Shown: positions 40,367 to 55,401, counted from the first letter of the stretch. The stretch is 62,451 nt of DNA from Pseudomonadota bacterium (GCA_022562175.1 JADFPU010000001.1:1-62451); one strand, 5' to 3'. Notes: generated by a model from the sequence alone, not told the origin. Translations and numbers: made by a program.

Positions 40367-41143
40367 TCATTCTATGATAAGGACCGAATCATCCTCCAGT
40401 TCATCTTCAAACATAGCCTCATAGTCTATTAATGGCGGATTTCCATCGTAAATTAAAAATTCCCGTCGCTGTAGATACGCCTCACGTGTGAAGGAATAGA
40501 GATCCACGGCTGCCTCATCACGTATGCTCGTCTCGTCCAATAAATCTGCCCGGAGATTAATAATGTTGATTGCCAGCAAGGGGAAAAAGATAGCACCCGT
40601 GACGTAGGTTAGCGGGTTGAGCAGTGTGCTTGACGCCAAATCAGGTGTATTTCGTATGGTATTGGGCCCAAGCACGGGTAAATACAGATAGGAGCCCCGG
40701 TTGATGCCCCAAACAGCAAGTGTTTGTCCAAAATCTTCATTGTGCTCGGGAAGACCCATAGGGGTGGCGACATCGAACAAACCACCGATCCCTATGGTAG
40801 AATTGAACAGAAGTCTGACGCTATCTGACAGTCCTTGATCAATTTTCCCTTGTAAAAAGGAATTTAGAATAACGTTAAGGTAGGCAATGTTATCAAAAAA
40901 ATTGGTAATACTTGTACGCACCAGTTGTGGAGTGAACTCTGCGTAGGTCTTTGAAATCGGTTTCAACAGGTGCTTGTCCAGTGCCTCGTTAAAGTTGAAG
41001 AAACCCCTGTTTGCGAGCTCCAGCCGATCAGGTGCTCCGGCATAGTCCTCTTTTGACGGTGCCGTGGAACAGCCACCAAGAAGACCGAATGAAAATATTA
41101 AAATCAGGCTAATTATCTTATGTTTCAATGATATATTATTCAT
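40367..41143 (-). CDS. mlaA: MlaA/VacJ-family outer-membrane lipoprotein
   Basis: 258 aa with lipobox LLGGC and VacJ core motifs (NRGFFNFN, FGQTLAVWG). Confidence 0.88.
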   Translation of the reverse strand: MNNISLKHKIISLILIFSFGLLGGCSTAPSKEDYAGAPDRLELANRGFFNFNEALDKHLLKPISKTYAEFTPQLVRTSITNFFDNIAYLNVILNSFLQGKIDQGLSDSVRLLFNSTIGIGGLFDVATPMGLPEHNEDFGQTLAVWGINRGSYLYLPVLGPNTIRNTPDLASSTLLNPLTYVTGAIFFPLLAINIINLRADLLDETSIRDEAAVDLYSFTREAYLQRREFLIYDGNPPLIDYEAMFEDELEDDSVLIIE

Positions 41144-41271
41144 TACTTACCCCGTGTAAGCATTCCTGATGCATAAGCAAATATTGACATACAATCTCTA
41201 TCGACACAAATCGAAAGGACATATTGGTAAATTACTGTGCAACAAATGGCTCAAATCTCAAGACAATTGGG

Positions 41272-41925
41272 TTATTCGTTACTGTTTTCCATTTGTTCAA
41301 TCTTTCTTTCTATCTCGGCGACCAGACCGTCGAATCCTTTTGCCCGGATGACGGCGGCATATTCAGCTCTTTTTAAGGATAGATCATTTACACCGTTTGC
41401 TATAACACTGATGATCAACCAGTTACCGTCCTTTTGATGCATTAAATAATTGAGTTTTATCGGCTCCTTTTTAACACGCAGCAGTTCTGTTTTAATCAGA
41501 AGACGTCCCTTTTTTAATACCTCTTTGGAAACTTCCCGAAATTGCTCGTCGTTATAATCATTAAATCGTGAGGCATAGGTCGCTATGCTGAGCTGATTAA
41601 ACATTTCAATGAAATTTGATTTCTGTAGCGCAGTTAATTTTTTCCAGTATCGGCTCAGGATAACTTTAACGATTAGCGGCGTGTCAAACAGTGACGAGAT
41701 GACAGGCGCCAGTTGGTTAAATCTAGCTTGATAACCAAGCGTGTCCGACTGCTGCATCACCTCTAAAAGCTTCTGGTGCAATCGCTCGACTGTTTCACTT
41801 GCCTCGGCAAATTCCTCCGTCGGCGCGGCTGTTACCGGGGAAACCAGTCCAACAGCCCATAACAGGAGGATTGTGCACAGTATTCCGCCTCCGCAAATCC
41901 GTGCTGATACAGTGTTTAATTTCAT
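41272..41925 (-). CDS. MlaC/Ttg2D-like periplasmic lipid-binding protein (HpnM-like)
   Basis: Start taken at MKLNTV, giving a signal peptide ending VTA-AP and removing the overlap with the upstream gene. It has toluene-tolerance Ttg2D family features (ILSRYWKKLT, YASRF). The HpnM label is based on context. Confidence 0.65.
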   Translation of the reverse strand: MKLNTVSARICGGGILCTILLLWAVGLVSPVTAAPTEEFAEASETVERLHQKLLEVMQQSDTLGYQARFNQLAPVISSLFDTPLIVKVILSRYWKKLTALQKSNFIEMFNQLSIATYASRFNDYNDEQFREVSKEVLKKGRLLIKTELLRVKKEPIKLNYLMHQKDGNWLIISVIANGVNDLSLKRAEYAAVIRAKGFDGLVAEIERKIEQMENSNE

Positions 41926-41971
41926 TGTGTCTAGTGTGTCTAGAGGTTTGACAGTGAAATCACGAAAAGTT

Positions 41972-43096
41972 TTAATCTGTTTGTCTGGTATAGGTACGGT
42001 CCTTCCAGATCGAACCTCTGCCACGCCAGTGATGGGTGGCGGAACACCAGGTCATCAGCAGGTAAAGCACGCCGGCAATTGGCAGCGTCAGTCCCCAAAA
42101 AATATTCACATCGTAAAATTTCAGTGTCGGCAAGTAGCTCGCCAGCATCAGCGCCAGGCTTATTAATGCCAGGACAATCGTGACAGGTTCCTGCGAGAAA
42201 AGTGCCGCCAGCGGCAGGATAAAAGCCGCAATCAGTAACAACGTGCATAATCCTAACAGCAAGTTTGAATATTGTAGTTGTGTAAATGCCGTTCTCGCCA
42301 CCATTTGCCAAATAGTCTGTAATGTAGGGTACTGCCTCAAACTAACCGCAGAATGGGACAGCCCTATCCAGGTACGATTGCCGGCCTGTTTCACCTTCCG
42401 GGCGAGGCAACAATCATCAATCAATGCATCCCTTATAGCAGAAAATCCACCTATTCCGTCCAGTGCTTGTTTACTGATCAAAATACAACCACCCGCCGCT
42501 GCGGCAACCAGTGTTGAACCGGAATTTGAAAGTCGGAACGGATATAACAATTTAAAAAAATAGATAAATGCCGGCATCAATAATCTCTCCCAGAAGTTTT
42601 CCATCCTGAGAAAAGCCATCAGCGAAACAAGTTGCCGCTGGTCGGTTTTAATCTTTGCCAACAAGGCGGCGAGGGTGCCGGGTTTCAGTTCGATATCGGC
42701 ATCCAGTAACAATAGATAATCAGTGTCAGCATGATGGCGAGCTTGTTCCAGTGCCCACAGTTTGCCACTCCAGCCAGACGCCAGGGGCAGGCCTTTTATA
42801 ATGCTGAGATTGTCTAAATCCAGTTTGCTGGCCACGGCGACCGTGTTATCGCTCGACTGATCATCTATCAGGATTATCTTGTGGCCTTGCCCCTGTTGAG
42901 TCAGTGCAACCAGTGTTTGCGCAATGACATCCTGCTCATTTCTGGCCGGTATTAATACCGTGACTTGTGACAAGTCCGGACTGCAAGAGCTATCTGCTTC
43001 CAGTGCCTCTTGTGTGCTCCAGGGACGCCATGGCAGCAGCAGTATACTGGCCCAGATGACGAGACCTGGCAGTGCAAGCCACAGTAATTCCATCAA
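41972..43096 (-). CDS. family 2 glycosyltransferase, hopanoid-associated (HpnB/HpnI-like)
   Basis: 374 aa with an N-terminal TM segment, a GT2 core (VLIPARNE, IDDQSSD, LLLDADIEL) and C-terminal TM helices. Its start overlaps the hpnH stop by 4 nt. Confidence 0.7.
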   Translation of the reverse strand: MMELLWLALPGLVIWASILLLPWRPWSTQEALEADSSCSPDLSQVTVLIPARNEQDVIAQTLVALTQQGQGHKIILIDDQSSDNTVAVASKLDLDNLSIIKGLPLASGWSGKLWALEQARHHADTDYLLLLDADIELKPGTLAALLAKIKTDQRQLVSLMAFLRMENFWERLLMPAFIYFFKLLYPFRLSNSGSTLVAAAAGGCILISKQALDGIGGFSAIRDALIDDCCLARKVKQAGNRTWIGLSHSAVSLRQYPTLQTIWQMVARTAFTQLQYSNLLLGLCTLLLIAAFILPLAALFSQEPVTIVLALISLALMLASYLPTLKFYDVNIFWGLTLPIAGVLYLLMTWCSATHHWRGRGSIWKDRTYTRQTD

Positions 43097-44229
43097 GCAA
43101 CTTGTTTATTGCTAGTATCGCGAGGCACCGGCACTGGCTTGATTTCCGCGATCAGTTTCAGTTCTGGAAAGGCTTCCTCTTCATACAGGACGGGCAGTTC
43201 GGGCGCCATGGGGCCATCAGTCCGAGGTCCAAGCACAGCCACTTTAAGCGCTTCCCAGGGCCTTTTAAAAGTATCGTTGACTGCCGTGGGTTCGTAACCA
43301 CAATGCACCATGCAGTTAGCACATTTAGGATTACGTCCGGTGCCGTATTTTTCCCATTCAGTTTCTGTCATCAAGCCATCAAAAGAAGAGGCATAACCCT
43401 CTCCAACCAGCAGATAGCAGGGCTTCTGCCAGCCGAAGACATTTCGTGTCGGGTTGCCCCAGGGTGTGCACTGGTAAGACTGGTTGCCTGCCAGGAAGTC
43501 AAGGTACAGGGCTGATTGGTTAAACCGCCATTTTTTACCCCGGCCTATCTTGAACAGATCACGGAACAGTTGTTTACCTTCTTTTCGTTGCAGGAACACA
43601 TCTTGCCTCGGAGCACGCTCGTAGTTGTATCCTGGCGAGATGGTCACGCCTTCGACACCCAGTTGCATGGCCATATCCATAAAATCCGCAACCTCTTGTG
43701 CAGATTCACCCTGAAATAAAGTACAGTTGATGGTGACACGGAAGCCTTTACTGTGGACCAGTTTTATTACTTTGATGCACTTTTCGAACACGCCTTGCCG
43801 GCAGACTGAAGTGTCATGTCGTTGCTGGTTGCCATCGAGATGGATCGAAAATGTCAGATAGGGGGAGGGCGTATACTCATCCATGTGCTGTTTCAGCAAC
43901 AAGGCATTGGTACATAAGTAGACGAATTTTTTCTTTTCGATGTAGCCGTTTACAATTTTCTGCATCTCCGTATGGATAAGCGGCTCACCACCCGCGATGG
44001 AAACAATTGGCGCCCCACATTCATCAATAGCCCTCATGCAATCTTCATAACTGAGGCGCTTATCAAGAATTTCTTGCGGGTAATCTATTTTGCCGCAGCC
44101 AGAGCAGGCGAGATTGCAGCGGAACAGCGGTTCCAGCATCAGCACCAGCGGGTAGCGGCTTTGCCGGCTAAGTTTTTTGCCTATTATGTATTTAGCGACC
44201 CGATACTGTTGTATTAATGGCACACCCAT
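43093..44229 (-). CDS. hpnH: hopanoid biosynthesis radical SAM protein HpnH (adenosylhopane synthase)
   Basis: 378 aa with the radical SAM motif CNLACSGC. The N-terminus (IQQYRVAKYIIGKKL) and the C-terminal Cys-rich region (KCANCMVHCGYE) are typical of HpnH. Confidence 0.85.
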   Translation of the reverse strand: MGVPLIQQYRVAKYIIGKKLSRQSRYPLVLMLEPLFRCNLACSGCGKIDYPQEILDKRLSYEDCMRAIDECGAPIVSIAGGEPLIHTEMQKIVNGYIEKKKFVYLCTNALLLKQHMDEYTPSPYLTFSIHLDGNQQRHDTSVCRQGVFEKCIKVIKLVHSKGFRVTINCTLFQGESAQEVADFMDMAMQLGVEGVTISPGYNYERAPRQDVFLQRKEGKQLFRDLFKIGRGKKWRFNQSALYLDFLAGNQSYQCTPWGNPTRNVFGWQKPCYLLVGEGYASSFDGLMTETEWEKYGTGRNPKCANCMVHCGYEPTAVNDTFKRPWEALKVAVLGPRTDGPMAPELPVLYEEEAFPELKLIAEIKPVPVPRDTSNKQVA

Positions 44230-44478: not shown

Positions 44479-46371
44479 ATGACTAACAACGTTAGAACAC
44501 CACTGCTCGATACGATCAATTCGCCAGCTGATCTGCGCAAACTTCCAGAGTCCCAATTGCAATTGCTGGCGAAGGAAATAAGGCATTTCCTGCTGCATTC
44601 CGTCAGCAAGAGTGGTGGTCATTTTGCTGCAGGTCTAGGTACCGTCGAACTTACTATCGCTTTACACTACCTGCTAAATACGCCGGATGACCGTATAGTC
44701 TGGGATGTTGGCCATCAGGCTTATCCGCATAAGATCCTGACCGGCAGACGGGATCGCATGCACAGTATCCGCCAATGGCAGGGCTTGGCGCCTTTCCCGA
44801 AGCGTGAAGAAAGTGAATACGATGCCTTTGGCGTGGGTCATTCGAGCACATCAATCAGCGCTGCCCTGGGCATGGCCATCGCAGCAAAACATTCAGGCAG
44901 CCGGCGCAAATTAGTCGCCGTTATTGGCGATGGTGGCTTGACGGCGGGCATGGCCTTCGAGGCCCTTAATCATGCCGGCGCCCTGCGCAGCAACCTGCTG
45001 GTTATTCTGAACGATAATGATATGTCGATATCGCCGAATGTAGGGGCATTGTCCAAGCGTTTTGCCCAGATGCTGTCCGGTAAACTCTACACCGCAGCGC
45101 GTGAGAAGGGTAAAAAGGTATTGTCCAATATGCCGCCGGCCTGGGAGATAGCGAAACGTGCGGAAGAACACATTAAAGGTTTGATTGTCCCCGGGACATT
45201 GTTTGAAGAGTTTGGTTTCAATTACATAGGCCCGATTGATGGACATGATCTGCCGACACTATTGGAAACCTTGCACAATATTATCCAGCTGGACGGGCCT
45301 CAGTTTCTACATATCATCACCAAAAAGGGCAAGGGCTATGAACCGGCCGAAGCTGATCCGGTTAAATATCATGGTGTCACGCCGTTTGATCCAATTCAGG
45401 GCATAATCGCTTCCAAGAAGGTCTCACGGCCTACATACAGCAAGGTGTTCAGTGATTGGGTCTGCGACATGGCGGCCCAGGATGAACGTCTGGTTGCCAT
45501 CACGCCTGCCATGCGTGAGGGTTCAGGTTTAGTCCGTTTTGAACAGGAATTCCCGGATCGCTATTTTGATGTAGCGATAGCTGAACAACACAGTGTCACG
45601 GTTGCGGCCGGCATGGCCTGTGATGGTCTGAAACCTGTGGTGGCGATTTATTCAACTTTTTTGCAGCGGGCTTATGATCAGCTGGTGCACGATATCATCA
45701 TCCAAAAGCTGCCGGTACTATTTGCCATTGATCGGGCCGGATTGGTCGGGGCAGATGGTCCTACCCATAACGGTAGCTTCGACCTGACTTTGCTGCGTTG
45801 CCTGCCGAACATGGTTATCATGGCGCCCGCTGATGAAAACGAATGCCGACAAATGCTGTACACCGGTTTTATGCTGGATCAACCTGCCGCAGTACGATAT
45901 CCGCGTGGAACAGGGCCCGGTGTAGAGATTGAACAAGTGATGAGCGCACTTCCAATAGGTAAGGCAGAGATGCGTAGACAGGGCAAGGGGATTGCTATCC
46001 TCGCCTTTGGCTCCATGCTGGCCGTTGCACTGGAAGTCGGCGAACAACTGGATGCGACAGTCATCAATATGCGTTTTATCAAACCAATCGATACAGAGAT
46101 GATCATACAGTTGACACAGGAGTATGATTTACTGGTGACGGTCGAAGAGAATACCGTACAGGGGGGCGCGGGCAGCGCAGTGACTGAAACCCTGACGGCG
46201 CATGGCATTACCCAGGCTGTGCTGCAATATGGTTTGCCGGATGAATTTATTCCTCACGGCGGCAGAGAGGATATGTTGAAGGGTGCGGGCATGACAACGG
46301 AGGGACTGTTAGAATTTATTCTGGGGCATCTGCAGGCACAGGACGCAGGCAAAGCTGCGAAGACAGCTTGA
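44479..46371 (+). CDS. dxs: 1-deoxy-D-xylulose-5-phosphate synthase
   Basis: 630 aa with [12 protein letters not shown] and the TPP motif [15 protein letters not shown]. No recognisable Shine-Dalgarno; the start is preceded by T9A8. Confidence 0.96.
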
Positions 46372-46427: not shown

Positions 46428-47513
46428 TCACGCTCCACGCTTTACGCTCAATATCTGTTCCACCGCAACCAAAAACCTTTGCAAGTCTTGCTCTGTGACC
46501 GCGCCCATGACGGATATTCTAAACAGTGTCCTGGCGAACCCACCCTGGCCGGCATATATAACAAAACCTCTTTCTTTAAGACCATCATGCAAGGTTTGGT
46601 AGCTTATACCCTCGGGCAAATGAAAGGCGTTCAAGACGCAGGATGAGTCTGCTTCGGCAAGTAATGCTCTTATCCCCAGTGCCTGCAGCCCATTACGGAC
46701 TATGGTCATTTTCTGCCGGTATTGTTTATGTCTGGCTTGCCAGCCACCGTCGTTACTGTGTTCATTGAGTGCTTCATCCAATGCATAGAAGGCTTGCACG
46801 GATTGGGTAAAAGGGGTGCTGCCGGCGTCTTGTTGTTTCAAATAAGTCGCCAGATGTAAATATAAGGAACGTTGAACATGCGCTGCCTGCTTAATGGCAT
46901 CACGTCGGCTGATCACGAATGAGGTACCGGGTACGCCATGCAGGCATTTATTTGCTGTAGCGGCGCAGGCAATTATGTTCCAATCGTGAAAGTTGATCTG
47001 TTCTGCTGCAAAACTACTGACAGCATCAACCAGTAAAGGGATGTTTTTTTGCGTGCAGATCCCGGCGATCTGTGCAATATCATTCAAGCGGCCACTGGTT
47101 GTTTCATGCTGAACGACGGCAACATGTGTCACACCGTCGGATAGTGATTGTTCAAGTTCGGCGACATTGATCAGTTCTCCCCATGCATGGTGCAGAGACA
47201 GATGGTCGATATTGTAAATATCGGCAATTCGGCTCAAGCGTTCACCATAGACACCATTCTCAATGATTAATAACTTGGCTTGTGCAGGCATCAGGCTGGT
47301 GAGCATGGCCTCCATCGCAGACGTGCCTGAGCCGGTGAGCAAGACTGCCGCCCAGTCATCGGGGTTTAACGCATAAATATCAAGCAGCTTTTTACGAATG
47401 CCGTTTTGCAGCATGCTGAACTCAACTTCCCGGTGACACAAATCAGGTTTCAGCATGGCGTTGCGTACACGCTCTGAAAGGTTAACCGGGCCGGGGCTGA
47501 GTAAAATAGTCAT
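46428..47513 (-). CDS. 2-aminoethylphosphonate:pyruvate aminotransferase (class V)
   Basis: 361 aa with the N-terminus LLSPGPVNLSERV and a PLP-Lys context (ATANKCLHG). It is last in the pepM-ppd operon. Confidence 0.8.
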   Translation of the reverse strand: MTILLSPGPVNLSERVRNAMLKPDLCHREVEFSMLQNGIRKKLLDIYALNPDDWAAVLLTGSGTSAMEAMLTSLMPAQAKLLIIENGVYGERLSRIADIYNIDHLSLHHAWGELINVAELEQSLSDGVTHVAVVQHETTSGRLNDIAQIAGICTQKNIPLLVDAVSSFAAEQINFHDWNIIACAATANKCLHGVPGTSFVISRRDAIKQAAHVQRSLYLHLATYLKQQDAGSTPFTQSVQAFYALDEALNEHSNDGGWQARHKQYRQKMTIVRNGLQALGIRALLAEADSSCVLNAFHLPEGISYQTLHDGLKERGFVIYAGQGGFARTLFRISVMGAVTEQDLQRFLVAVEQILSVKRGA

Positions 47514-47520
47514 GCAAAGC

Positions 47521-48675
47521 TTAGAACCTTGAATTAATGTGCTGCATGAGGCGTCTCAGCACATCGGCTGGGCTTATACCAGGCCGTGCAAGATTTTCGA
47601 TGGTGCCGGCTGTTATTTTTAAATGAGCAAACCGTGGCCCGTGCGCGGCATTATGTTCAAACAGTTTGTCGATCATGACCGGATCAGCACCACTATATGC
47701 CACACTGTAGCCGCAGGCGCTGGCAATATCTGCAAAGGCGACATTGCCTGTGACTGTAGACTGTGCACCCGTGGAATCATGCGCTTCATTATCCAGCAGG
47801 ATATGAATAAAATTATTACCGGCATAACTACCGATCGTGGCAAAGTTGCCCATGCGCATCAGTGCAGCCCCGTCTCCATCGATGACAACAACTGTTAGAT
47901 CAGGACGGGCAAGCGACAGGCCTAAACCCAGAGAGGATGCGCAGCCCATGGAGCCGACCATATAAAGGTGATTATTTCGATCAGCAATGCTGAATAGTTC
48001 ACGACCTGTATAGCCGGTGGTGGCAATGGTGACAGTATCAAGTTCCTGGCAATTTGCGATAATGGTTTTTAAAGCATCATGTCTGGATATATATTTCCTG
48101 TTCGGACTATCGAATATCTTCTTCTCAACAAGTGCTGTATCAATTACAGAAATCGGATTGCGGGCCAGTTTGTGGGGTGCAACGCTGCCTTTCTTCATAA
48201 TGAATGCATAAGGCCGTTGTTCACGCTGCATATATTGTGTGGCATGTTCAAGTGCTGCCTGTATATCAGCTTGTTCGGATGGAAAATATTCCCAGGGTAC
48301 TTGCATGAGGTCAAACAGGTCGCCGCTGATCTTTCCCATCAATTCATGTTGTGGTTCATCAGTTAACTCTGCAGCGCCACGATGTGTGGCGATGATCAGT
48401 ATTGGAATACGAAAGATATAGCACAGGGATGTTATCGGGCTGACAGCATTTCCCAGGCCTGAATTCTGCATTAATACGACAGAAGCTTTACCACCTATAG
48501 CGGCGCCGGCGGCAGTTGCCAGGGCATCGCCTTCATTCGCAGACGAGACATAGTTCAGGGTTTCATCATTAATCACATAATTGATGAATGGTGTTAAAAA
48601 CGAACATGGCACGCCGGTGTAATACCTGAAGCCGTGATTGCGAGCGGCTTCAACGAAACTTCCTGCACTGATCAT
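47521..48675 (-). CDS. ppd: phosphonopyruvate decarboxylase
   Basis: 384 aa with the TPP-binding motif GDGAALMRMGNF...LLDNEAHDSTG. The N-terminus (FRYYTGVPCSFL) is typical of Ppd. Confidence 0.87.
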   Translation of the reverse strand: MISAGSFVEAARNHGFRYYTGVPCSFLTPFINYVINDETLNYVSSANEGDALATAAGAAIGGKASVVLMQNSGLGNAVSPITSLCYIFRIPILIIATHRGAAELTDEPQHELMGKISGDLFDLMQVPWEYFPSEQADIQAALEHATQYMQREQRPYAFIMKKGSVAPHKLARNPISVIDTALVEKKIFDSPNRKYISRHDALKTIIANCQELDTVTIATTGYTGRELFSIADRNNHLYMVGSMGCASSLGLGLSLARPDLTVVVIDGDGAALMRMGNFATIGSYAGNNFIHILLDNEAHDSTGAQSTVTGNVAFADIASACGYSVAYSGADPVMIDKLFEHNAAHGPRFAHLKITAGTIENLARPGISPADVLRRLMQHINSRF

Positions 48676-48698
48676 ATGAACATCAGCCCGGGGGGAAA

Positions 48699-50354
48699 TT
48701 ATGCCGAACCACGTGTAAAATCACTGGCGCGGTCAATATCATCCAGCGCATTTACATCAAGCCAATGTCCATGGATGTAATGGACATTGATTTTTTTCCC
48801 TTGACTAACCAGATAATTCAACAGATCCGGGATCGTCAGTTGATGGAAATTATCCTGTTTTTGCAGGAATTCGATGGCTGCGTCCAACCATTCTCTACCC
48901 TCGTTACGTACCCTGAGCATGCCGATCCATCTGCCCGATGGTGTCCCGTAATCAACTGCTTCGTGCTCAGAGACATGTTTTAGTTCGACTGTCTGTTTAA
49001 ACAACGCGCGGTCATCAGTCTGGCTGCAATAAGCATAGTCAGGACTGCCACTGATTGAGTTTGTTTGTTGGGAGGAGTCTACGACAACAACAAAGTCCCC
49101 ATCATAATCGAGAAGATCGCTAAGGACATAGCTCCTGAATAGCAGATCGCCATACATGATTATCATGTCACTATGGTATGCCTGCTGTGCACAGGCCAGT
49201 GAACTCAACTCACCAGTGGTCTCATAATCCTCGTTTAGACAGATATCAATGCTGCTGATGTTGATGGCCTCAGCTTTATAACCTGCTACCACCGTAATTT
49301 TATTGATACCTTGCTTCTTGAACTCATCAATAAGTCTTCGGAGCAATGGCTTACCACCTATCGAAAGCATTACCTTTGGTCTATCTTCTGTCAATTCATG
49401 CAGAGCATCTCCTCTGCTGGCGGCCAGTACTATCGCATGGGCTTCCTGCCGGTTCTTGAGATAGCGCTGCTGGGCCTGGGACAATTCGTCTGCCCCCTGC
49501 AGGGAAAATATTTTATCGACTGTGGCAATTTGGTGTTCTATACCCGCCAGGGATTCATGCAGAAAGATCTGACTGCTTACCTGTTCCATTGCTGCGACCG
49601 AAGCACGGATCATATGATTTGCCCAGATCACCAGGCTGATACCGGCTTTACGAAAGACTTCTGTCGGTGTGCTGTAGTATTTTGTGGGCACAATAACCAG
49701 CGGTGAGCGTCCCGCCCATTCATTGGCAAATGCAATGACCTCATCAGGATGTGAGAGCTTGCTATGGATCAATATTGCATCCGCCCCTGCAGCATGATAA
49801 GCCTCGGCACGTCGCAGGGCTTCAGTTAAATCCCAGCCCGCGATCAATGCCTCAATTCGGGCAATGATACAAAAATCCGCATCGGTCTGGCTGTCTTTAC
49901 CGGCCTTTATTTTTCCACAGAATTCATCAATGTCCACTAAAGGTTGTCGCTCGCCCTCTATAAAGCTGTTTGTCTTGGGGAACTGCTTATCTTCAATGCA
50001 AACGCCGGCAATACTACGTTGTCCCAGCTTTTTGACCAATCGTCGCATATTATTGAAATTTCCATAGCCAGTGTCACCGTCCAGTAATATGGGGATGTCA
50101 GTGACATCAGACATGAATTCCAGCATATCAACAACCTGGGTCCAGCTCGCTTCGTTACTGTCACGTACACCAAACTGCGCAGACAACGCCAGGCCACTGG
50201 CCCAGATACCCTTGAAACCTGACTGCTCGGCTATACGTGCGGAAATGCCATTGTGAGCTTCTAAAATAAATTCAAGCGTAGTGGATTTGAGCAAGCTGCG
50301 TAGTTGCTGACTTTTACTTGCTGACGCATCTATATTGGGTGGTTGTGGTGCCAT
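48699..50354 (-). CDS. pepM: phosphoenolpyruvate mutase fused to a C-terminal nucleotidyltransferase-like domain
   Basis: 551 aa. The PepM hallmark [10 protein letters not shown] (EDKxxxxxNS) lies at 49965-49994. From about residue 305 (48702-49442) there is an NTP-transferase fold whose usual LAAGxGxRL loop reads LAASRGDAL. Confidence 0.9.
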
Positions 50355-50360
50355 TTTAAT

Positions 50361-51098
50361 CTATTCAATATGGTCAAGAATTTGTGTTGCATGTTCGATA
50401 TCTTCCGGAAAGTCTATCTCGATCCACGAAAGTCCACTGATATCTTCAAAGTCGAATGTGTCCGGTTCGGCAAGCAACAGATCACGTATCACTTCTTCAT
50501 AGGGCTCATCTGTACGGTTATTATCTATATAATGCTGCGCCAGTTCTGCCAGCTTGTTTGCTGTCGATGCTGAGAATCTGAAAAAACCTACTGATTCCCC
50601 CTGAAAATCGAATTGCAGATCTTTGTCGATCTGTTTGCGAAAATCAATTAACAGTCCATCACGTATGCACAATTTAACGGGTTCATCACCTGCTTCAAAG
50701 TCTCTGTCCAGCAGAAAACAATTATTCAGGTCTGTATTGATCAGTGTTTGTATTATTCGTATGTCGTACAGCACGTCGGCGTCCATCAGTACAATATCGT
50801 CACCCGATTGCAAAAACTCCCTGGCACAAAACAGACTCACTATACTACCGGCCTGGTAATCGGGATTATATACTGTTCGTATCGCGGCGCTGGATTCTGT
50901 CGCAGAAAGCTCATGCAGGATCTGTTGCTGTTGGTAGCCGGTAATGATGATTATTTCCGAAATAGCGTGTTGGTTGAGGTTATGCAGATGGCGTTGCAGC
51001 AAAGAGCGTCCGGCAAATTCAAGCAGGCATTTGGGTTTGTCATTGTTTATATCACCCAGCCTTTTGCCGGTACCTGCGGCAAGAATTATAGCTTTCAT
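50361..51098 (-). CDS. nucleotidyltransferase (LicC/PntC-like cytidylyltransferase)
   Basis: The start is taken at MKAIILAAGTGKRLG, which carries the canonical NTP-transferase loop. The ORF-track extension to 51152 has no support. Its stop lies 7 nt before the pepM start. Confidence 0.8.
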   Translation of the reverse strand: MKAIILAAGTGKRLGDINNDKPKCLLEFAGRSLLQRHLHNLNQHAISEIIIITGYQQQQILHELSATESSAAIRTVYNPDYQAGSIVSLFCAREFLQSGDDIVLMDADVLYDIRIIQTLINTDLNNCFLLDRDFEAGDEPVKLCIRDGLLIDFRKQIDKDLQFDFQGESVGFFRFSASTANKLAELAQHYIDNNRTDEPYEEVIRDLLLAEPDTFDFEDISGLSWIEIDFPEDIEHATQILDHIE

Positions 51099-51293
51099 TT
51101 GAATTTGGTTCAGTATCAGTATTTGGTTTTTGTAAAGATGGAATATTATCACGATTCCCCATGTCGGATTCTTAAGTTACACACAAGTAATGACGATAAC
51201 AGTATTATCTTGCAGGTGAAAACAAAACCGGCCTGCAGTAATGTCTATATTTACTACCATGCTTTATATGCATGAAGTACTATATTGTCGAAA

Positions 51294-52589
51294 ATGTCGT
51301 TTCAAACACCTGAAAAACTCGGAAAGTATACGATCCACAAACAAATCGGACGTGGCAGCATGGGTATTGTTTACCAGGGATACGATCCGTACGCCGACCG
51401 CAAAGTAGCGGTCAAGGTAGCATTGGCGGAATCGCTCAAGGACAGTGAATCCGGTGCGCGCTATCGTAAGATGTTTTTCAATGAGGCGCATACTGCCGGC
51501 ATGCTCAAGCACCCGAATATAGTTAAGATCTTCGATGCCGGTGCTGATGGCGATGATTGTTACATCGTCATGGAATTGATAGAGGGGGCTGATACGTTAA
51601 AGAGTTTCTGTAAGCCGGAAACTCTGCTGCCTGTAGAACTGGTTATTGAAATTATTTTTAAATGTGCCAAGGCACTTGACCATGCACATCAAAATGGTGT
51701 TGTCCATCGTGATATCAAGCCAACAAATATCCTGATCACGAAGGATAAGGATGTAAAGATTGCTGATTTCAGTATTGCCCATCTTGTTACTTCAGATACG
51801 ACCCATACCATGCCAATCGGTTTTATCGGTTCACCCCGATATATGTCTCCCGAGCAGGTACAGGAAGACAATATATCTAACCAGACTGATTTGTTTTCGC
51901 TGGGTATTGTGATGTATGAACTGTTGACCGGCAAACACCCGTTCATTGCGGACAGTTTTTCCAGGTTGATACACAAGATCATTAATGAAAAACAACCGCC
52001 ATTAAGAACTTATCGCTCGGATCTGCCGGAGATACTTGAGAAAATAGTTCATCATGCATTACAGAAGGATCAGAACAGGCGTTATAAAATGGGACTGAAT
52101 ATGGCGGCTGATTTATCACTGGCGTTTGATTACCTGGAGGAACCACAAAGAGATATTGATATACAGGAAAAATTTAATGCTATACAGCAACTGGATTTTT
52201 TTGATGAATTCGTCGAATCAGAAATCTGGGAGATTATCAGGGCTTGTGTATGGCAGGAGTTTGAGAAAGGATCTGAAGTTATTGTGGAAGGTGATATTGA
52301 TGACTCATTTTATATCATTACCTCAGGCGAGGTCGAAGTACGCAAGGAGGATAATGTTATCGATATGCTCAAAAAAGGTGACTGTTTCGGGGAAATGGGA
52401 TATTTATCGAAAACCAGGCGATCAGCCACGATAATAGCTAAACAGAGGTTGCAACTCATGAAAATCAACGCGACCTTGATCGAGCAGGTCTCTATTGATT
52501 GCCAATTGCATTTTAGTCGCGTCTTTCTAAGCACACTGGTCAGACGCTTGTCGGCTACAACAGCGTTGGTCATTGCGCCTGCAGACTAG
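51294..52589 (+). CDS. Ser/Thr protein kinase (Hanks-type) with a C-terminal cyclic-nucleotide-binding domain, paralog 1
   Basis: Kinase motifs are complete: GRGSMGIVY, VAVKV, HRDIKPTNIL, DFSIAH and GSPRYMSPEQ. The C-terminal ~125 aa have a cNMP-binding beta-roll with phosphate-binding cassette GDCFGEMGYLSKTRRSATIIA (F at 52386). The ATG at 51294 gives the same N-terminal length as paralog 2. Confidence 0.85.
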   Translation: MSFQTPEKLGKYTIHKQIGRGSMGIVYQGYDPYADRKVAVKVALAESLKDSESGARYRKMFFNEAHTAGMLKHPNIVKIFDAGADGDDCYIVMELIEGADTLKSFCKPETLLPVELVIEIIFKCAKALDHAHQNGVVHRDIKPTNILITKDKDVKIADFSIAHLVTSDTTHTMPIGFIGSPRYMSPEQVQEDNISNQTDLFSLGIVMYELLTGKHPFIADSFSRLIHKIINEKQPPLRTYRSDLPEILEKIVHHALQKDQNRRYKMGLNMAADLSLAFDYLEEPQRDIDIQEKFNAIQQLDFFDEFVESEIWEIIRACVWQEFEKGSEVIVEGDIDDSFYIITSGEVEVRKEDNVIDMLKKGDCFGEMGYLSKTRRSATIIAKQRLQLMKINATLIEQVSIDCQLHFSRVFLSTLVRRLSATTALVIAPAD

Positions 52590-52922
52590 CCCGTGTCCAT
52601 CAAGAAAGAATAATTCTCGCCAAGGCGCAAAGATCGCAAAGTTATAAAATATCCATAGCTTAGTCCTTAAGGTCTGAAACCATTATTAAGGTCAGCATTT
52701 TAAACACAGAGACACGGAGTACACGGAGTTAGGATTATATTTGTTCTTTATCTCCGTGTACTCCGTGCCTCCGTGTTTAGATTTCAGATTATCTGACAAC
52801 TCTAGACTATGAATATTCCATTAAGATCCTACCTATGACTGAATGTTGGTTTAAAATAATATTACGATTTCTTTCATGGTGTCTTTGCGAGAAAAATTAT
52901 AGCGTTTATGGACGGGCACTAG
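52586..52922. mobile_element. nested MITE (copy D): outer-family element carrying an inner hairpin MITE at 52654-52837
   Basis: The ends read CTAGCCCGTGTCCAT... and ...ATGGACGGGCACTAG. The outer arms match copy A in the opposite orientation. The inner element runs from CATAG to CCTACCTATG, with hairpin arms at 52702-52728 and 52752-52778. The left terminal CTAG contains the kinase 1 stop codon. Confidence 0.8.
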
Positions 52923-52942
52923 TTCGTTATCCGAGCAACGAG

Positions 52943-54538
52943 CTATGTTTTATTTTTAAAATATTGCTCAATCAACAACGAGGTCGATGCATCATGCTTT
53001 GACTCGATCGGTGGTTTCTGTTCCAGATCGCTTATAATTTCTGTCGCCAGTTTTTTGCCAAGCTCTACTCCCCACTGATCGAATGGATTAATGTCCCATA
53101 TCATCGCCTGAACATAAGTGCGGTGTTCATACATGGCCAGCAGCATGCCCAGAATTTTTGGTGACAATTTTGGATAAGTAATCGTTGTGCTGGGTCTGTT
53201 ACCAGGGAAATGTTTGCATGGTTCTGTATTATTTTCCTGGCCGAGCATCAATGCCTTGCTTTGTGCGAAACAATTCGCGACAACTTTATGGTGTTTGTCA
53301 TCGCGACTGCTTTGCATAGCTATCAGAAAATCCACCGGTACAAGACGCGTGCCTTGATGTAATAACTGGAAGAAGGCATGTTGCGCATTGGTGCCTGCCG
53401 CTCCCCAGAAAACGGGTGATGAATGCAGTTCAAGCGCTTGTCCCTCAGAGCTTACGCCTTTGCCGTTGCTTTCCATGATGAGTTGACTCAGGTAAGCCGG
53501 TAATAGCTGCAGACCATGATCATAAGGTATGACTGCGTGTGTTTCGGCATTAAAAAAATTGTTATACCAGACATCGAGCATGGCAAGGATGATGGGGATA
53601 TTGTTTTCAGCAGGCGCATTATAAAAATGCTCATCCATTGCATGCGCACCCGCCAGGAAGTCTGCAAAACTGTTATTGTCTGTATAGACTGCGATGGCTA
53701 ATCCTACTGCTGACCAGACTGAGTATCGTCCACCCACCCAATCCCATATTTGAAATAAACGATCTGCTGAAATACCGAATTCCTGTATAGCGCTTTTATT
53801 TGACGAGACCGCAATGAAATGCCTGTGGATTTCGTGGCAACCATTATCGATAAGCCACTGCTTCGCCAGCCGGGCATTGGCATGAGTTTCGAGCGTGCTG
53901 AATGACTTTGATGTGACAATGAATAATGTTGTCTCAGGATCGGAATCATCCAGTACCCTATACAGATCCTGTGTATCAAGGTTCGCAACAAATGCAATTT
54001 TTATATTGCTGCTACGGTAGTCATATAAGGCATCCACAACGAGACGTGGTCCCAGGTCAGAGCCGCCAATGCCAATATTCACTACCTTGCTAATCGGTTT
54101 TCCCGTTGAACCCTTGTGCTCCCGATTGTGTAATGCCTTGACAAAGTTATACATCCGCTCAAGTTCGGCTTTTACCTGTGCGGGGATGGTTTTTTGATCG
54201 GTATCAGGCAGTTTATCATCAGGAGACCTCAGGGCAGTGTGCAATGCTGCACGATGCTCTGTTTTATTTACTTGCTGGCCTGAAAACAGTGCGGAGATTT
54301 TTTCCCTGATATTTGTAGCATTCGCCAGGGAAATGAGTAGATCGAATGTTTCATCTGTAATACGGTGTTTTGAGAAGTCGATCAGTAATCCATTCAAACC
54401 GGTTGAAAATTTCTTCGCCCTGGCTGGATCCTGGGCGAACAGGTCACGCATGTGTAGTTTGGCAATTGCCCGATGGTGTTCCTTGAGCTGATGCCATACG
54501 TATTCTTTTGACGGGCTTTGATTTTCTGAACTTCGCAT
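52943..54538 (-). CDS. pgi: glucose-6-phosphate isomerase
   Basis: 531 aa with PGI family motifs (IGIGGSDLGP, GGRYSVWSAVG). Confidence 0.96.
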   Translation of the reverse strand: MRSSENQSPSKEYVWHQLKEHHRAIAKLHMRDLFAQDPARAKKFSTGLNGLLIDFSKHRITDETFDLLISLANATNIREKISALFSGQQVNKTEHRAALHTALRSPDDKLPDTDQKTIPAQVKAELERMYNFVKALHNREHKGSTGKPISKVVNIGIGGSDLGPRLVVDALYDYRSSNIKIAFVANLDTQDLYRVLDDSDPETTLFIVTSKSFSTLETHANARLAKQWLIDNGCHEIHRHFIAVSSNKSAIQEFGISADRLFQIWDWVGGRYSVWSAVGLAIAVYTDNNSFADFLAGAHAMDEHFYNAPAENNIPIILAMLDVWYNNFFNAETHAVIPYDHGLQLLPAYLSQLIMESNGKGVSSEGQALELHSSPVFWGAAGTNAQHAFFQLLHQGTRLVPVDFLIAMQSSRDDKHHKVVANCFAQSKALMLGQENNTEPCKHFPGNRPSTTITYPKLSPKILGMLLAMYEHRTYVQAMIWDINPFDQWGVELGKKLATEIISDLEQKPPIESKHDASTSLLIEQYFKNKT

Positions 54539-54652
54539 AGCCCGGTATTTTTACATAAAACTATCCAGAAGGCTTGTGAACTGGTGCTGGCATATCGAAG
54601 CAAACCCTGAATTAATCAGCGTCTCATCAGATATGTCTGTACTCCACGCTAC

Positions 54653-55096
54653 TTACCCACTGCCAGCGATATAATGCTCCAGTTGTTCAATGATAAATTC
54701 CTTTTCTGAAATGGTAGTCTTTACTGCATCCATCACCGTCAGGATTCCGACTACCTTATCGTTTTCAATGACCGGTAAATGCCGGATTCGATGCTTTGCC
54801 ATCAGCAGCATACACTCTTCTATGCTGTTCTCGGGCGTCACACAAATAATCTTGCTGGTCATGATCTCCCGGACGCTGGTGCTTTTTGAAGATCGATCCT
54901 TAAGGATTACCTTTCGTGTATAATCCCGTTCCGAGATGATGCCCACCAGCTTGTCATTTTCCATGACCACCAACGCACCTACTTCATGCACTGACATGAG
55001 CGTAATAGCTTCAAAAACTGTGATATCGGCTGATATTGAGTAAACTTCGTTACCCTTTTTATCAAGCAGTTGACGAACATTTGTATTCATAGACAT
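54653..55096 (-). CDS. CBS-pair domain protein
   Basis: 147 aa consisting of two CBS motifs and no other domain. Confidence 0.85.
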   Translation of the reverse strand: MSMNTNVRQLLDKKGNEVYSISADITVFEAITLMSVHEVGALVVMENDKLVGIISERDYTRKVILKDRSSKSTSVREIMTSKIICVTPENSIEECMLLMAKHRIRHLPVIENDKVVGILTVMDAVKTTISEKEFIIEQLEHYIAGSG

Positions 55097-55401
55097 CCCT
55101 CCAAGTGTTTCATCAGTAATTTTGGCACCTAAGGTGGATAATCACAATATTTCTGAGCTGGAAATTAACCGTATTCCCATGGATTCCTGTCAGTAATCAT
55201 CCGCCGTTGGACGATTACCTCGATAGCAGATTGCTATAGTGTGACTGACATTGGCGCTTGGTGTCAGTACTGTGGTTGTGAAAGCCCGGACAATTCGAGT
55301 AACATTAACAGGTACAACCGATCACGTCTAAATTTCTAGTGTTCGGGTTCATGATCAAGATAGGCCCTTGCAGGGAATATCATTAATGATTTCGTGCAGT
55401 T

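What the first reader, a model, noticed from the sequence alone, without database searches (positions are those of the whole stretch)
46428..51098. 2-aminoethylphosphonate cluster with two nucleotidyltransferase modules but no visible transferase for the activated phosphonate
Seen: a four-gene minus-strand operon encodes a stand-alone NTP-transferase (ILAAGTGKRLG), a PepM carrying the diagnostic [10 protein letters not shown] fused to a second NTase-like domain, a phosphonopyruvate decarboxylase and a class V aminotransferase. Established: PepM, Ppd and the AEP transaminase give 2-AEP. LicC/PntC-like cytidylyltransferases, sometimes fused to PepM, convert it to CMP-2-AEP for attachment to lipids or glycans. 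Inference: the product is probably a nucleotide-activated phosphonate. Two NTase modules are unexpected; they may mean two different activated head groups, or one module may be catalytic and the other regulatory. No LicD-like, CDP-alcohol phosphatidyltransferase-like or glycosyltransferase acceptor enzyme is adjacent, so the final acceptor is unknown. The neighbours are dxs on one side and a cNMP-gated kinase on the other.
Basis: partly seen in the sequence, partly recalled or inferred. Interest (0 to 1): 0.6.

Follow-up and report, generated by a model that had tools for sequence, protein, structure and literature searches.

The report
Aminoethylphosphonate head-group operon, transferase unlinked
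These four genes make the carbon-phosphorus compound 2-aminoethylphosphonate and probably activate it with CTP; the gene set is a known but uncharacterised 'phosphonolipid' type, its missing transferase lies elsewhere in the genome, and its steady link to hopanoid genes is the most interesting part.

Summary
Window 46428-51098 (minus strand) is a tight four-gene operon: a stand-alone nucleotidyltransferase (sNT), PepM fused to a second NTase domain (fNT), Ppd and the AEP transaminase.

Two NTase modules are not unexpected. Rice 2019, Li & Horsman 2022 and a 2018 Nostoc paper all describe a Ppm-fused NTase plus a separate PntC. It is part of the seven-gene 'Group 1 phosphonolipid / Burkholderiales_CDP-OH' core.

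The window holds four of those seven genes. The genome has no LicD. It has one CDP-alcohol phosphotransferase of the cluster-specific subfamily, on contig C7. Homologues of that protein lie beside sNT in 37 of 80 loci from five phyla. Among 300 Gammaproteobacteria, 18 of the 19 genomes with this subfamily also have PepM.

sNT keeps every PntC catalytic residue. fNT has a PntC fold but a conserved, rebuilt site (S-R-G loop, no Arg15 or Lys153, and Tyr and Leu in place of the acidic amine ligands). Its role is unknown.

The operon lies within hopanoid genes across phyla, so a phosphonate-capped hopanoid is possible but unproven. Verdict: a new member of a known, uncharacterised kind.

The parts
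46428..47513 (-). 2-aminoethylphosphonate aminotransferase (AEPT, AepZ/PhnW type); last gene of the operon
   Evidence: TIGR03301 398.7 bits (cut-off 360.8) and PF00266. Conserved after Ppd in 47 related loci.
47521..48675 (-). phosphonopyruvate decarboxylase (Ppd)
   Evidence: TIGR03297 424.7 bits (cut-off 312.5), with TPP_enzyme_N and TPP_enzyme_C domains.
49455..50354 (-). PEP mutase domain of the fusion protein (residues 1-300)
   Evidence: TIGR02320 391.5 bits (cut-off 319.55). [10 protein letters not shown] motif present. Matches 1M1B PEP mutase at E 2.5e-123.
48699..49454 (-). fused NTase domain (fNT, residues 301-551): PntC-like fold with a conserved non-canonical site (A-S-R-G loop)
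   Evidence: PF12804 over residues 307-430. AF2 model pLDDT 90.5, with best Foldseek match 6PD2 PntC at TMq 0.81. Residue table over 98 homologues.
50361..51098 (-). stand-alone PntC-like cytidylyltransferase (sNT); first gene of the operon
   Evidence: Best PDB match 6PD1 Tde-PntC at E 2.5e-16, then LicC. The equivalents of R15, K25, K153, D106, E196 and E220 are invariant in 70 homologues.
44479..46371 (+). dxs, convergent with the operon (context: isoprenoid precursor supply)
   Evidence: TIGR00204 913.6 bits. The same position is conserved in about 30 gammaproteobacterial loci.
40367..44229 (-). hpnH-hpnB-hpnM-mlaA-like hopanoid side-chain and trafficking operon (context)
   Evidence: TIGR03470 HpnH 541.8 bits, TIGR03469 HpnB 392.4 bits, TIGR03481 HpnM 192.6 bits, plus an MlaA-like protein. 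Syntenic with the AEP operon in relatives.
51285..52589 (+). Ser/Thr kinase with a cNMP-binding domain, divergent from sNT (context; no functional link shown)
   Evidence: Pkinase and cNMP_binding domains. The order STK-PGI-STK-sNT is conserved in the closest relatives and in same-family genome G161.

Best explanation
This is a supply operon for a phosphonate lipid head group. PepM converts PEP to phosphonopyruvate, Ppd pulls the reaction forward to phosphonoacetaldehyde, and AEPT makes 2-AEP. These steps follow from curated family membership. The stand-alone PntC-type NTase then most likely makes CMP-AEP; this is inferred from conserved catalytic residues and from its nearest characterised relative. 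The operon is a split copy of the already described but biochemically uncharacterised seven-gene 'Group 1 phosphonolipid / Burkholderiales_CDP-OH' cluster. In this genome the head-group transferase is unlinked. It is the 225-aa CDP-alcohol phosphotransferase on contig C7 (3492-4166, beside an HpnA-like gene). The LPG_synthase_TM/HpnL-like partner lies on contig C129. The 2OG oxygenase of the core is absent, so the head group should be AEP rather than 1-hydroxy-AEP. CMP-AEP would be transferred to a membrane-lipid alcohol whose identity is not established. The PepM-fused NTase is a separate, ancient and strongly conserved subfamily with a rebuilt active site. It probably does something other than AEP cytidylylation, but what is unknown.
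For: Family scores are above the curated cut-offs. sNT's best solved relative is PntC, and all residues whose mutation cripples Tde-PntC (R15, K25, K153; PMC6697681 section 9) are invariant in 70 sNT homologues. The order sNT, PepM-fNT, Ppd, AEPT recurs in about 70 of 80 loci from Gammaproteobacteria and Nostocales. A natural 797-aa sNT-PepM-fNT fusion exists. The genome has no LicD and five CDP-OH_P_transf genes. Only the C7 type has homologues next to sNT or PepM: 37 and 28 of 80 CDP-OH-seeded loci, from gamma-, alpha- and betaproteobacteria, Verrucomicrobiota and Nostocales. Its DxxDGxxAR...G...D...D motif is intact. Among 300 Gammaproteobacteria, 18 of the 19 genomes with this subfamily also have a true PepM (1.8 expected by chance; Fisher p = 1.8e-20; 14 families). 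The one exception is a genome that is 75% complete. In the same-family complete genome G161 the transferase is likewise unlinked. The gene set matches the published seven-gene core (PMC8942020 section 13; PMC5987646 Fig. 7).
Against: There is no biochemical evidence. No product of this cluster family has ever been isolated (PMC8942020). The transferase assignment rests on gene neighbourhood and co-occurrence in other genomes, and the genomes compared are not phylogenetically independent. C7 is a separate 8.3-kb contig of a 277-contig MAG, so its membership of the same organism depends on binning (estimated contamination 0.81%). sNT has Asp, as LicC does, where Tde-PntC has Glu104, so its preference for AEP over phosphoethanolamine or phosphocholine is not proven. 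Ten related loci lack AEPT next to Ppd, so the pathway end product may vary between relatives.
Confidence: 0.7

Rival explanations
1. The lipid acceptor is a hopanoid. CMP-AEP would be transferred by the C7-type CDP-OH enzyme to the side-chain hydroxyl of a bacteriohopanepolyol, giving a phosphono-hopanoid rather than a diacylglycerol phosphonolipid. This refines the main explanation rather than replacing it.
For: The AEP operon lies between dxs-hpnH-hpnB-hpnM on one side and, in relatives L047, L071, L072, L074 and L076, hpnC/D-shc-hpnG-hpnN-(CDP-OH)-hpnA-hpnL on the other. HpnH also lies within a few kb in Nostocales (L035, L036, L041, L057, L068). CDP-OH-seeded loci carry HpnJ (17), HpnK (16), HpnI (14), HpnA (15) and HpnN (12) out of 80. 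18 of the 19 CDP-OH-positive genomes have squalene-hopene cyclase (2.9 expected; p = 8e-16), and 17 have PepM, SHC and CDP-OH together. In this genome the CDP-OH gene sits beside an HpnA-like gene (TIGR03466, 327 bits, which is below the 367.65 cut-off). Three papers note 'terpene-phosphonate' neighbourhoods from genome mining (PMC7285500, PMC8776678, PMC8942020).
Against: No phosphonate- or phosphate-bearing hopanoid has been reported. Co-location could reflect shared regulation of envelope lipids. A recent hopanoid gene survey does not mention phosphonates (10.1101/2025.07.29.667474). This genome lacks hpnI, hpnJ and hpnK.
Confidence: 0.3
2. The CMP-AEP transferase is one of the other CDP-alcohol transferases of the genome. 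The candidates are the NTase + CDP-OH gene pair on contig C58 and the IPCT/DIPPS-like NTase-CDP-OH fusion cut off at the edge of contig C14.
For: Both candidates combine an NTase with a CDP-OH transferase. Homologues of the C58 pair (66% identity) lie beside sNT-PepM in one alphaproteobacterial locus, L101. C14-like genes occur in L090 and L129.
Against: C58-type CDP-OH is found in 9 of 300 class genomes. Only the window's own genome among them has PepM, and the type is absent from same-family genome G161 (p = 0.6). Weak hits to the CDP-OH profile whose open frames are 449-480 aa long, which I take without checking to be C14-like fusions, fall mostly in genomes without PepM. Each candidate has its own NTase, which suggests an independent head-group pathway.
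Confidence: 0.08
3. The roles of the two NTases are reversed, or fNT is not an enzyme. In one version fNT is the AEP cytidylyltransferase and sNT activates another head group such as phosphoethanolamine or phosphocholine. In the other, fNT is a non-catalytic CTP-sensing or scaffolding domain of PepM.
For: According to Rice 2019, NTase fusions account for about 59% of the NTases lying nearest to ppm. I infer from this, without having tested it, that in many clusters the fused domain may be the only NTase. sNT carries the LicC-like Asp at position 104. fNT has lost Arg15 and Lys153, whose Ala mutants in Tde-PntC retain less than 10% of activity (PMC6697681 section 9).
Against: fNT lacks both acidic ligands of the AEP amine (Tyr in 96 of 98 homologues at position 104; Leu, Met or Ile at position 196), whereas sNT keeps Glu196. 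fNT keeps Lys25, Asp106, Asp220 and Trp218 and has gained invariant Arg12, Glu85 and Arg110 down to 35% identity across phyla. This pattern fits a changed active site better than a decayed one. sNT travels with the CDP-OH, oxygenase and HpnL module even where PepM is not nearby (Paraburkholderia loci).
Confidence: 0.15
4. The product goes to a glycan or stays soluble. In this reading AEP is attached to a polysaccharide by a glycosyl- or LicD-type transferase, or free AEP is made for phosphorus storage or export.
For: Phosphonoglycans are the documented fate of AEP in Bacteroides and oral anaerobes (PMC6697681). A GT2 gene (hpnB) lies about 3.3 kb away.
Against: The genome has no LicD. HpnB belongs to a hopanoid-associated family and sits in a different operon. 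The near-exclusive co-occurrence with a lipid-type CDP-OH transferase and an LPG_synthase_TM protein points to a lipid.
Confidence: 0.07

Closest known systems
'Group 1 phosphonolipid' (Yu et al. 2013), also called the 'Burkholderiales_CDP-OH' seven-gene core (Li & Horsman 2022, PMC8942020); the same cluster is drawn for lichen Nostoc (PMC5987646, Fig. 7)
   Same: PepM fused to a PF12804 NTase, Ppd, AEPT and a second separate PntC-like NTase. The CDP-OH transferase and the LPG_synthase_TM/HpnL-like protein of the same subfamilies are present in this genome.
   Different: Here the set is split over at least three contigs. The window holds only the four soluble-enzyme genes. The 2OG-Fe(II) oxygenase is missing; only a 41-aa PhnY*-like remnant was found on C129. 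The operon is embedded in hopanoid genes and flanked by a cNMP-binding kinase. No product of the family has been characterised in any organism.
Treponema denticola PntC (Tde1415, PDB 6PD1/6PD2), the characterised AEP cytidylyltransferase
   Same: sNT is its best sequence match among solved structures. sNT keeps the GxGxR...PK loop and the equivalents of R15, K25, K153, D106, E196 and E220. fNT has the same fold (TMq 0.81).
   Different: sNT is a stand-alone protein, not fused to AEPT, and has Asp instead of Glu104. fNT lacks R15, K153, E104 and E196 and carries an S-R-G loop.
Nitrosococcus GCF 731 and Acetobacteraceae 'terpene-phosphonate' neighbourhoods (PMC8942020, PMC7285500, PMC8776678)
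   Same: ppm-ppd-AEPT next to squalene and hopanoid genes.
   Different: Those reports rest on antiSMASH-type annotation only. They name no transferase and give no co-occurrence statistics.
Fom1 (fosfomycin biosynthesis): PepM fused to a cytidylyltransferase domain
   Same: A PepM-NTase fusion in which the NTase acts on a later pathway intermediate, not on the PepM product.
   Different: The Fom1 domain is N-terminal and belongs to PF01467 (CTP_transf_like). Here the domain is C-terminal and belongs to PF12804.

Membership tests
PEP mutase (Ppm/PepM) | EDKxxxxxNS catalytic motif and the TIGR02320 equivalog score | tested here: met
   [10 protein letters not shown] is present. The score is 391.5 bits against a cut-off of 319.55.
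Phosphonopyruvate decarboxylase | TIGR03297 equivalog score; TPP-binding N- and C-terminal domains | tested here: met
   424.7 bits against a cut-off of 312.5; PF02776 and PF02775 both match.
AEP aminotransferase (PhnW/AepZ) | TIGR03301 equivalog score | tested here: met
   398.7 bits against a cut-off of 360.8.
PntC (phosphonate-specific cytidylyltransferase): stand-alone sNT | GXG(T/S)RX4-8PK loop with equivalents of Arg15, Lys25 and Lys153 | tested here: met
   The loop reads GTGKR-x8-PK, with Lys at the T/S position. R15, K25 and K153 are invariant in 70 homologues.
PntC (phosphonate-specific cytidylyltransferase): stand-alone sNT | AEP-amine ligands Glu104 and Glu196 | tested here: inconclusive
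   Glu196 is kept. Position 104 is Asp in 70 of 70 homologues, as in LicC.
PntC (phosphonate-specific cytidylyltransferase): stand-alone sNT | Preference for AEP over phosphocholine with CTP | not testable with these tools
   This needs an enzyme assay.
PntC: PepM-fused fNT | GXG(T/S)RX4-8PK loop with Arg15, plus Lys153 | tested here: not met
   The loop is A-[S/T]-R-G-x-x. Position 15 is E, A, G or N and never R. Position 153 is Gln in 85 of 98 homologues. Lys25 is kept.
PntC: PepM-fused fNT | LicC/PntC fold | tested here: met
   AF2 model pLDDT 90.5. The best Foldseek hit is 6PD2 (TMq 0.81, E 6e-18); LicC gives TMq 0.77.
Group 1 phosphonolipid / Burkholderiales_CDP-OH seven-gene core | Ppm-NTase fusion, Ppd, AEPT and a second PntC in one cluster | tested here: met
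Group 1 phosphonolipid / Burkholderiales_CDP-OH seven-gene core | CDP-OH_P_transf and LPG_synthase_TM genes within the cluster | tested here: not met
   Both genes are present in the genome but unlinked to the operon. CDP-OH lies at C7:3492-4166 (295 bits to profile A1). The HpnL-like gene lies at about C129:8220-8960.
Group 1 phosphonolipid / Burkholderiales_CDP-OH seven-gene core | 2OG-Fe(II) oxygenase (for 1-hydroxy-AEP) | tested here: not met
   tblastn with all c12 and c40 members finds only a 41-aa fragment at C129:10999-11121. The genome is 93% complete.
Lic-type (LicC/LicD) head-group transfer to glycans | A LicD phosphotransferase in the genome | tested here: not met
   PF04991 gives no match in the whole genome, while the control genomes respond.
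CDP-alcohol phosphotransferase (the C7 protein) | DxxDGxxAR...G...D...D motif | tested here: met
   D82, D85, G86, A89, R90, G99, D103 and D107 are invariant in alignment A1. PF01066 scores 47.4 bits.

The most novel reading that the evidence does not exclude
The never-isolated product of this very common pepM cluster family may not be a glycerophosphonolipid. It may instead be a hopanoid capped with 2-aminoethylphosphonate, made from CMP-AEP by the hopanoid-associated CDP-OH transferase together with the HpnL-like and HpnA-like proteins. Within that pathway the PepM-fused NTase, with its rebuilt and conserved active site (Arg12, Glu85, Tyr104, Arg110), would perform a second, still unknown nucleotidyl-transfer or nucleotide-sensing step.
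Probability: 0.25. Interest if true: 0.8.

Novelty: new member of a known kind. Interest (0 to 1): 0.42.

Why it matters
Predicted phosphonolipid clusters of this type are the most abundant ppm neighbourhoods in sequenced bacteria, yet no product has been characterised. This window adds three things. First, the four soluble-enzyme genes can be separated from the membrane transferase, so a missing transferase next to pepM does not mean a missing pathway. Second, it gives a residue-level distinction between the two NTase modules, which turns the question of why there are two into a defined experiment. Third, it adds a genome to the multi-phylum pattern that ties this pathway to hopanoid producers. 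If the acceptor is a hopanoid, that would be a new lipid class. It might also explain why the predicted phosphonolipid has not been found, and it could be a new C-P biomarker.

Tried and rejected
1. LicD as the transferase: PF04991 gives no hit in the genome.

2. The C58 NTase + CDP-OH pair as the transferase: its phylogenetic profile is unrelated to PepM.

3. The C14 IPCT/DIPPS-like fusion: I judge it not to be correlated with PepM. That judgement rests on weak hits to the CDP-OH profile with 449-480-aa open frames, which I did not confirm as C14-like.

4. A single-protein related-loci search with the C7 protein found nothing. An alignment-based query was needed.

5. fNT as a decaying pseudo-domain: rejected. 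Its variant residues are invariant down to 35% identity across phyla.

6. sNT as a sugar-1-phosphate NTase: rejected. PntC and LicC are its top solved relatives.

7. A catabolic (PhnW) reading: I consider it unlikely, because the transaminase sits in one operon with PepM and Ppd. This was not tested further.

8. The search for homologous proteins on the fNT region returned only close relatives in its top 120. It therefore could not show whether all Ppm-fused PF12804 domains carry the S-R-G loop.

9. The promoter and terminator scan gave nothing above shuffled expectation.

10. Literature searches found no paper that characterises a Ppm-fused PF12804 domain or a phosphonate-bearing hopanoid.

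Full report
**1. Observation**

The region 46428-51098 holds four co-directional minus-strand ORFs of 361, 384, 551 and 245 aa. The gaps between them are 7, 23 and 6 nt. Curated models identify three of them above their cut-offs. They are the AEP aminotransferase (TIGR03301, 398.7 bits against 360.8), phosphonopyruvate decarboxylase (TIGR03297, 424.7 against 312.5) and PEP mutase (TIGR02320, 391.5 against 319.55).

The PEP mutase carries [10 protein letters not shown] and has a C-terminal PF12804 NTase domain at residues 307-430. I call this domain fNT. The first gene is a stand-alone PF12804/PF00483 NTase that begins MKAIILAAGTGKRLG. I call it sNT. The ATG at 51098 is the start conserved in homologues.

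Directly beyond dxs lies an hpnH-hpnB-hpnM-mlaA-like hopanoid operon, and it includes a GT2 glycosyltransferase (HpnB).

**2. Are two NTase modules unusual?**

No. Rice et al. 2019 (PMC6697681, section 6) found NTase domains fused to about 60% of Ppm enzymes. [quoted passage not shown] Li & Horsman 2022 (PMC8942020, section 13) describe a seven-gene core shared by 318 neighbourhoods. [quoted passage not shown] The same cluster, with a CDP-alcohol phosphatidyltransferase and hpnL, is drawn for lichen Nostoc (PMC5987646, Fig. 7).

In 80 loci recovered with the window's PepM-fNT protein, the order sNT, PepM-fNT, Ppd, AEPT is nearly universal. These loci come from uncultured Gammaproteobacteria and Nostocales and share 63-80% identity with the query. 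One metagenomic protein of 797 aa is a natural sNT-PepM-fNT triple fusion.

**3. What the two modules are**

sNT's best relative among solved structures is T. denticola PntC, the characterised AEP cytidylyltransferase (6PD1, E 2.5e-16). LicC comes next. I aligned 70 sNT and 98 fNT sequences with Tde-PntC and LicC. The table below uses Tde-PntC numbering.

| Position in Tde-PntC | sNT (70 sequences) | fNT (98 sequences) |
|---|---|---|
| Gly11 | Gly, invariant | Ser, Thr or Ala |
| Leu12 | Val or Ile (59 of 70); Thr in the window's sNT | Arg in 96 of 98 |
| Gly13 | Gly, invariant | Gly, invariant |
| Arg15 | Arg, invariant | Glu, Ala, Gly or Asn; never Arg |
| Lys25 | Lys, invariant | Lys, invariant |
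| Ser85 | Ser, invariant | Glu in 98 of 98 |
| Glu104 | Asp in 70 of 70 (Asp also in LicC) | Tyr in 96 of 98 |
| Asp106 | Asp, invariant | Asp, invariant |
| Asp110 | Asp in 57 of 70 | Arg in 98 of 98 |
| Lys153 | Lys, invariant | Gln in 85 of 98 |
| Glu196 | Glu, invariant | Leu, Met or Ile |
| Trp218 | Trp, invariant | Trp in 97 of 98 |
| Glu220 | Glu, invariant | Asp in 95 of 98 |

Arg15, Lys25 and Lys153 are the residues whose Ala mutants retain less than 10% of activity (PMC6697681, section 9). sNT keeps all three. fNT keeps only Lys25.

The fNT pattern holds from 80% down to 35% identity, in Cyanobacteria, alpha-, beta- and gammaproteobacteria and Verrucomicrobiota. An AlphaFold2 model of fNT (24-sequence alignment, pLDDT 90.5) has PntC 6PD2 as its best structural neighbour, at TMq 0.81.

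I conclude that sNT is the PntC-type AEP activator. fNT has the PntC fold but a rebuilt and conserved site. It lacks both acidic ligands of the AEP amine, so it is unlikely to be a redundant AEP cytidylyltransferase. Its conservation argues against decay. Whether it is a catalyst for another substrate or a nucleotide-sensing domain cannot be decided from sequence. I found no published assay of a Ppm-fused PF12804 domain.

**4. The 'missing' transferase**

The window belongs to a 2.75-Mb MAG of 277 contigs, estimated 93% complete. The genome has no LicD. It has five CDP-OH_P_transf genes:

- PgsA on contig C252.
- PssA on contig C155.
- An orphan 225-aa protein at C7:3492-4166.
- A CDP-OH gene preceded by its own NTase on contig C58.
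- An IPCT/DIPPS-like NTase-CDP-OH fusion cut off by the end of contig C14.

Only the C7 type has homologues beside the AEP genes. About 25 Nostocales loci and eight gammaproteobacterial loci carry one 1-4 kb upstream of sNT. Its catalytic DxxDGxxAR...G...D...D motif is intact.

I then seeded a search with an alignment of this subfamily and recovered 80 loci. They come from gamma-, alpha- and betaproteobacteria (including Paraburkholderia), Verrucomicrobiota, Nitrospirales and Nostocales. Of these loci:

- 37 carry sNT.
- 28 carry PepM-fNT.
- 37 carry an LPG_synthase_TM (HpnL-like) gene.
- 25 carry a 2OG oxygenase, and 15 carry a PhnY*-like oxygenase.

This is the published seven-gene core.

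Among 300 evenly sampled Gammaproteobacteria, 19 genomes from 14 families have this subfamily (more than 150 bits), and 29 have a true PepM. 18 of the 19 also have PepM, where 1.8 would be expected by chance (Fisher p = 1.8e-20). The one exception is a genome that is 75% complete.

The C58-type transferase occurs in nine of these genomes, and only the window's own genome among them has PepM. I therefore reject it as the AEP transferase. The C14 type also appears uncorrelated with PepM, but this rests on weak profile hits that I did not confirm.

In G161, a complete genome of the same family, the window's synteny is reproduced and the CDP-OH genes are likewise on other contigs. An unlinked transferase is therefore normal for this lineage.

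The HpnL-like partner lies on contig C129, next to hpnC/D, hpnG and hpnN. No 2OG oxygenase was found beyond a 41-aa fragment. The head group should therefore be AEP rather than 1-hydroxy-AEP.

**5. Most likely mechanism**

The steps from PEP to phosphonopyruvate (PepM), phosphonoacetaldehyde (Ppd) and AEP (AEPT) are shown by family membership. The step from AEP to CMP-AEP by sNT is inferred from conserved residues and the nearest characterised relative. The transfer of the aminoethylphosphonyl group to a lipid alcohol by the C7 CDP-OH enzyme is inferred from neighbourhood and co-occurrence. The HpnL-like membrane protein takes part in an unknown way.

**6. The hopanoid link**

In relatives L047, L071, L072, L074 and L076 the AEP genes lie in the middle of one continuous hpn supercluster. 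The order is hpnC/D-shc-hpnG-hpnN-(CDP-OH)-hpnA-hpnL-sNT-PepM/fNT-Ppd-AEPT-dxs-hpnH-hpnB-hpnM-mlaA. HpnH also lies near the operon in several Nostocales.

Many CDP-OH genes sit directly after hpnI-hpnJ-hpnK (L171). 18 of the 19 CDP-OH-positive genomes have squalene-hopene cyclase (2.9 expected; p = 8e-16), and 17 have all three genes. PepM itself is enriched in SHC-positive genomes (20 of 29).

Three genome-mining papers have remarked on 'terpene-phosphonate' neighbourhoods without follow-up (PMC7285500, PMC8776678, PMC8942020). A recent hopanoid survey calls HpnL's function unknown and does not mention phosphonates (10.1101/2025.07.29.667474).

A phosphonate-capped hopanoid is therefore a legitimate and testable reading. 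It remains unproven, and co-regulation of envelope lipids is an adequate alternative. Earlier notes of this scan reach the same idea in other genomes. They are AI notes and I do not count them as evidence. My analysis was done before I read them.

**7. Verdict**

CMP-AEP is the likely product. 'Unexpected' is wrong. 'No transferase' is true only for the neighbourhood.
- The feature is a new, split member of a known but biochemically uncharacterised cluster family.
- Its value lies in the defined difference between the two NTase modules and in the added support for the link between phosphonates and hopanoids.

Noticed in passing
L166 (G000 contig C58:4595-6259, outside the window): A second gene pair for head-group activation and transfer: a 301-aa NTase (LLAAGTGSRLRPL) directly followed by a 253-aa CDP-OH transferase. 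Its phylogenetic profile is unrelated to PepM and SHC. In one alphaproteobacterial locus (L101), homologues at 66% identity lie beside the sNT-PepM cluster. The substrate is unknown.
   Followed up: partly
L085 (G000 contig C14:2-1012, outside the window): An IPCT/DIPPS-like bifunctional NTase-CDP-OH transferase (NF041135, 210 bits, far below the 580-bit cut-off), cut off at its 5' end by the contig edge. A possible CDP-inositol-type pathway in a gammaproteobacterial MAG.
   Followed up: no
L004, L006, L018, L020, L022, L024, L026, L028, L066, L070: Ten related gammaproteobacterial loci have sNT-PepM/fNT-Ppd followed directly by dxs, with no AEPT gene. The transaminase may be encoded elsewhere, or the end product may differ (for example a phosphonate derived from phosphonoacetaldehyde).
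   Followed up: no
P0003 (metagenomic protein, 797 aa): A natural triple fusion sNT-PepM-fNT in one reading frame. This gene fusion indicates that the stand-alone NTase works together with PepM-fNT.
   Followed up: partly
G000 contig C129:10999-11121 (outside the window): A 41-aa tblastn match to the PhnY*-like 2OG oxygenase between hpnG and hpnN. The intact gene occupies that position in relatives such as L047. It looks like the remnant of a lost oxygenase, which would fit AEP rather than hydroxy-AEP as the head group.
   Followed up: no
window 51285-56694: The arrangement kinase(cNMP)-pgi-kinase(cNMP), divergent from sNT, is conserved in the closest relatives and in same-family genome G161 (L172). 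The intergenic region between the kinase and sNT is 186 bp. No functional link to the phosphonate operon was tested.
   Followed up: no
L093; L129, L139, L140, L145, L147, L155, L159, L171: Members of the same CDP-OH subfamily sit at the end of hpnL-hpnI-hpnJ-hpnK operons, or opposite hpnL-hpnC/D-shc, with no pepM within 10 kb. In at least four of these genomes pepM lies elsewhere (L014/L129, L023/L130, L032/L161 and L078/L109 come from the same assemblies).
   Followed up: partly
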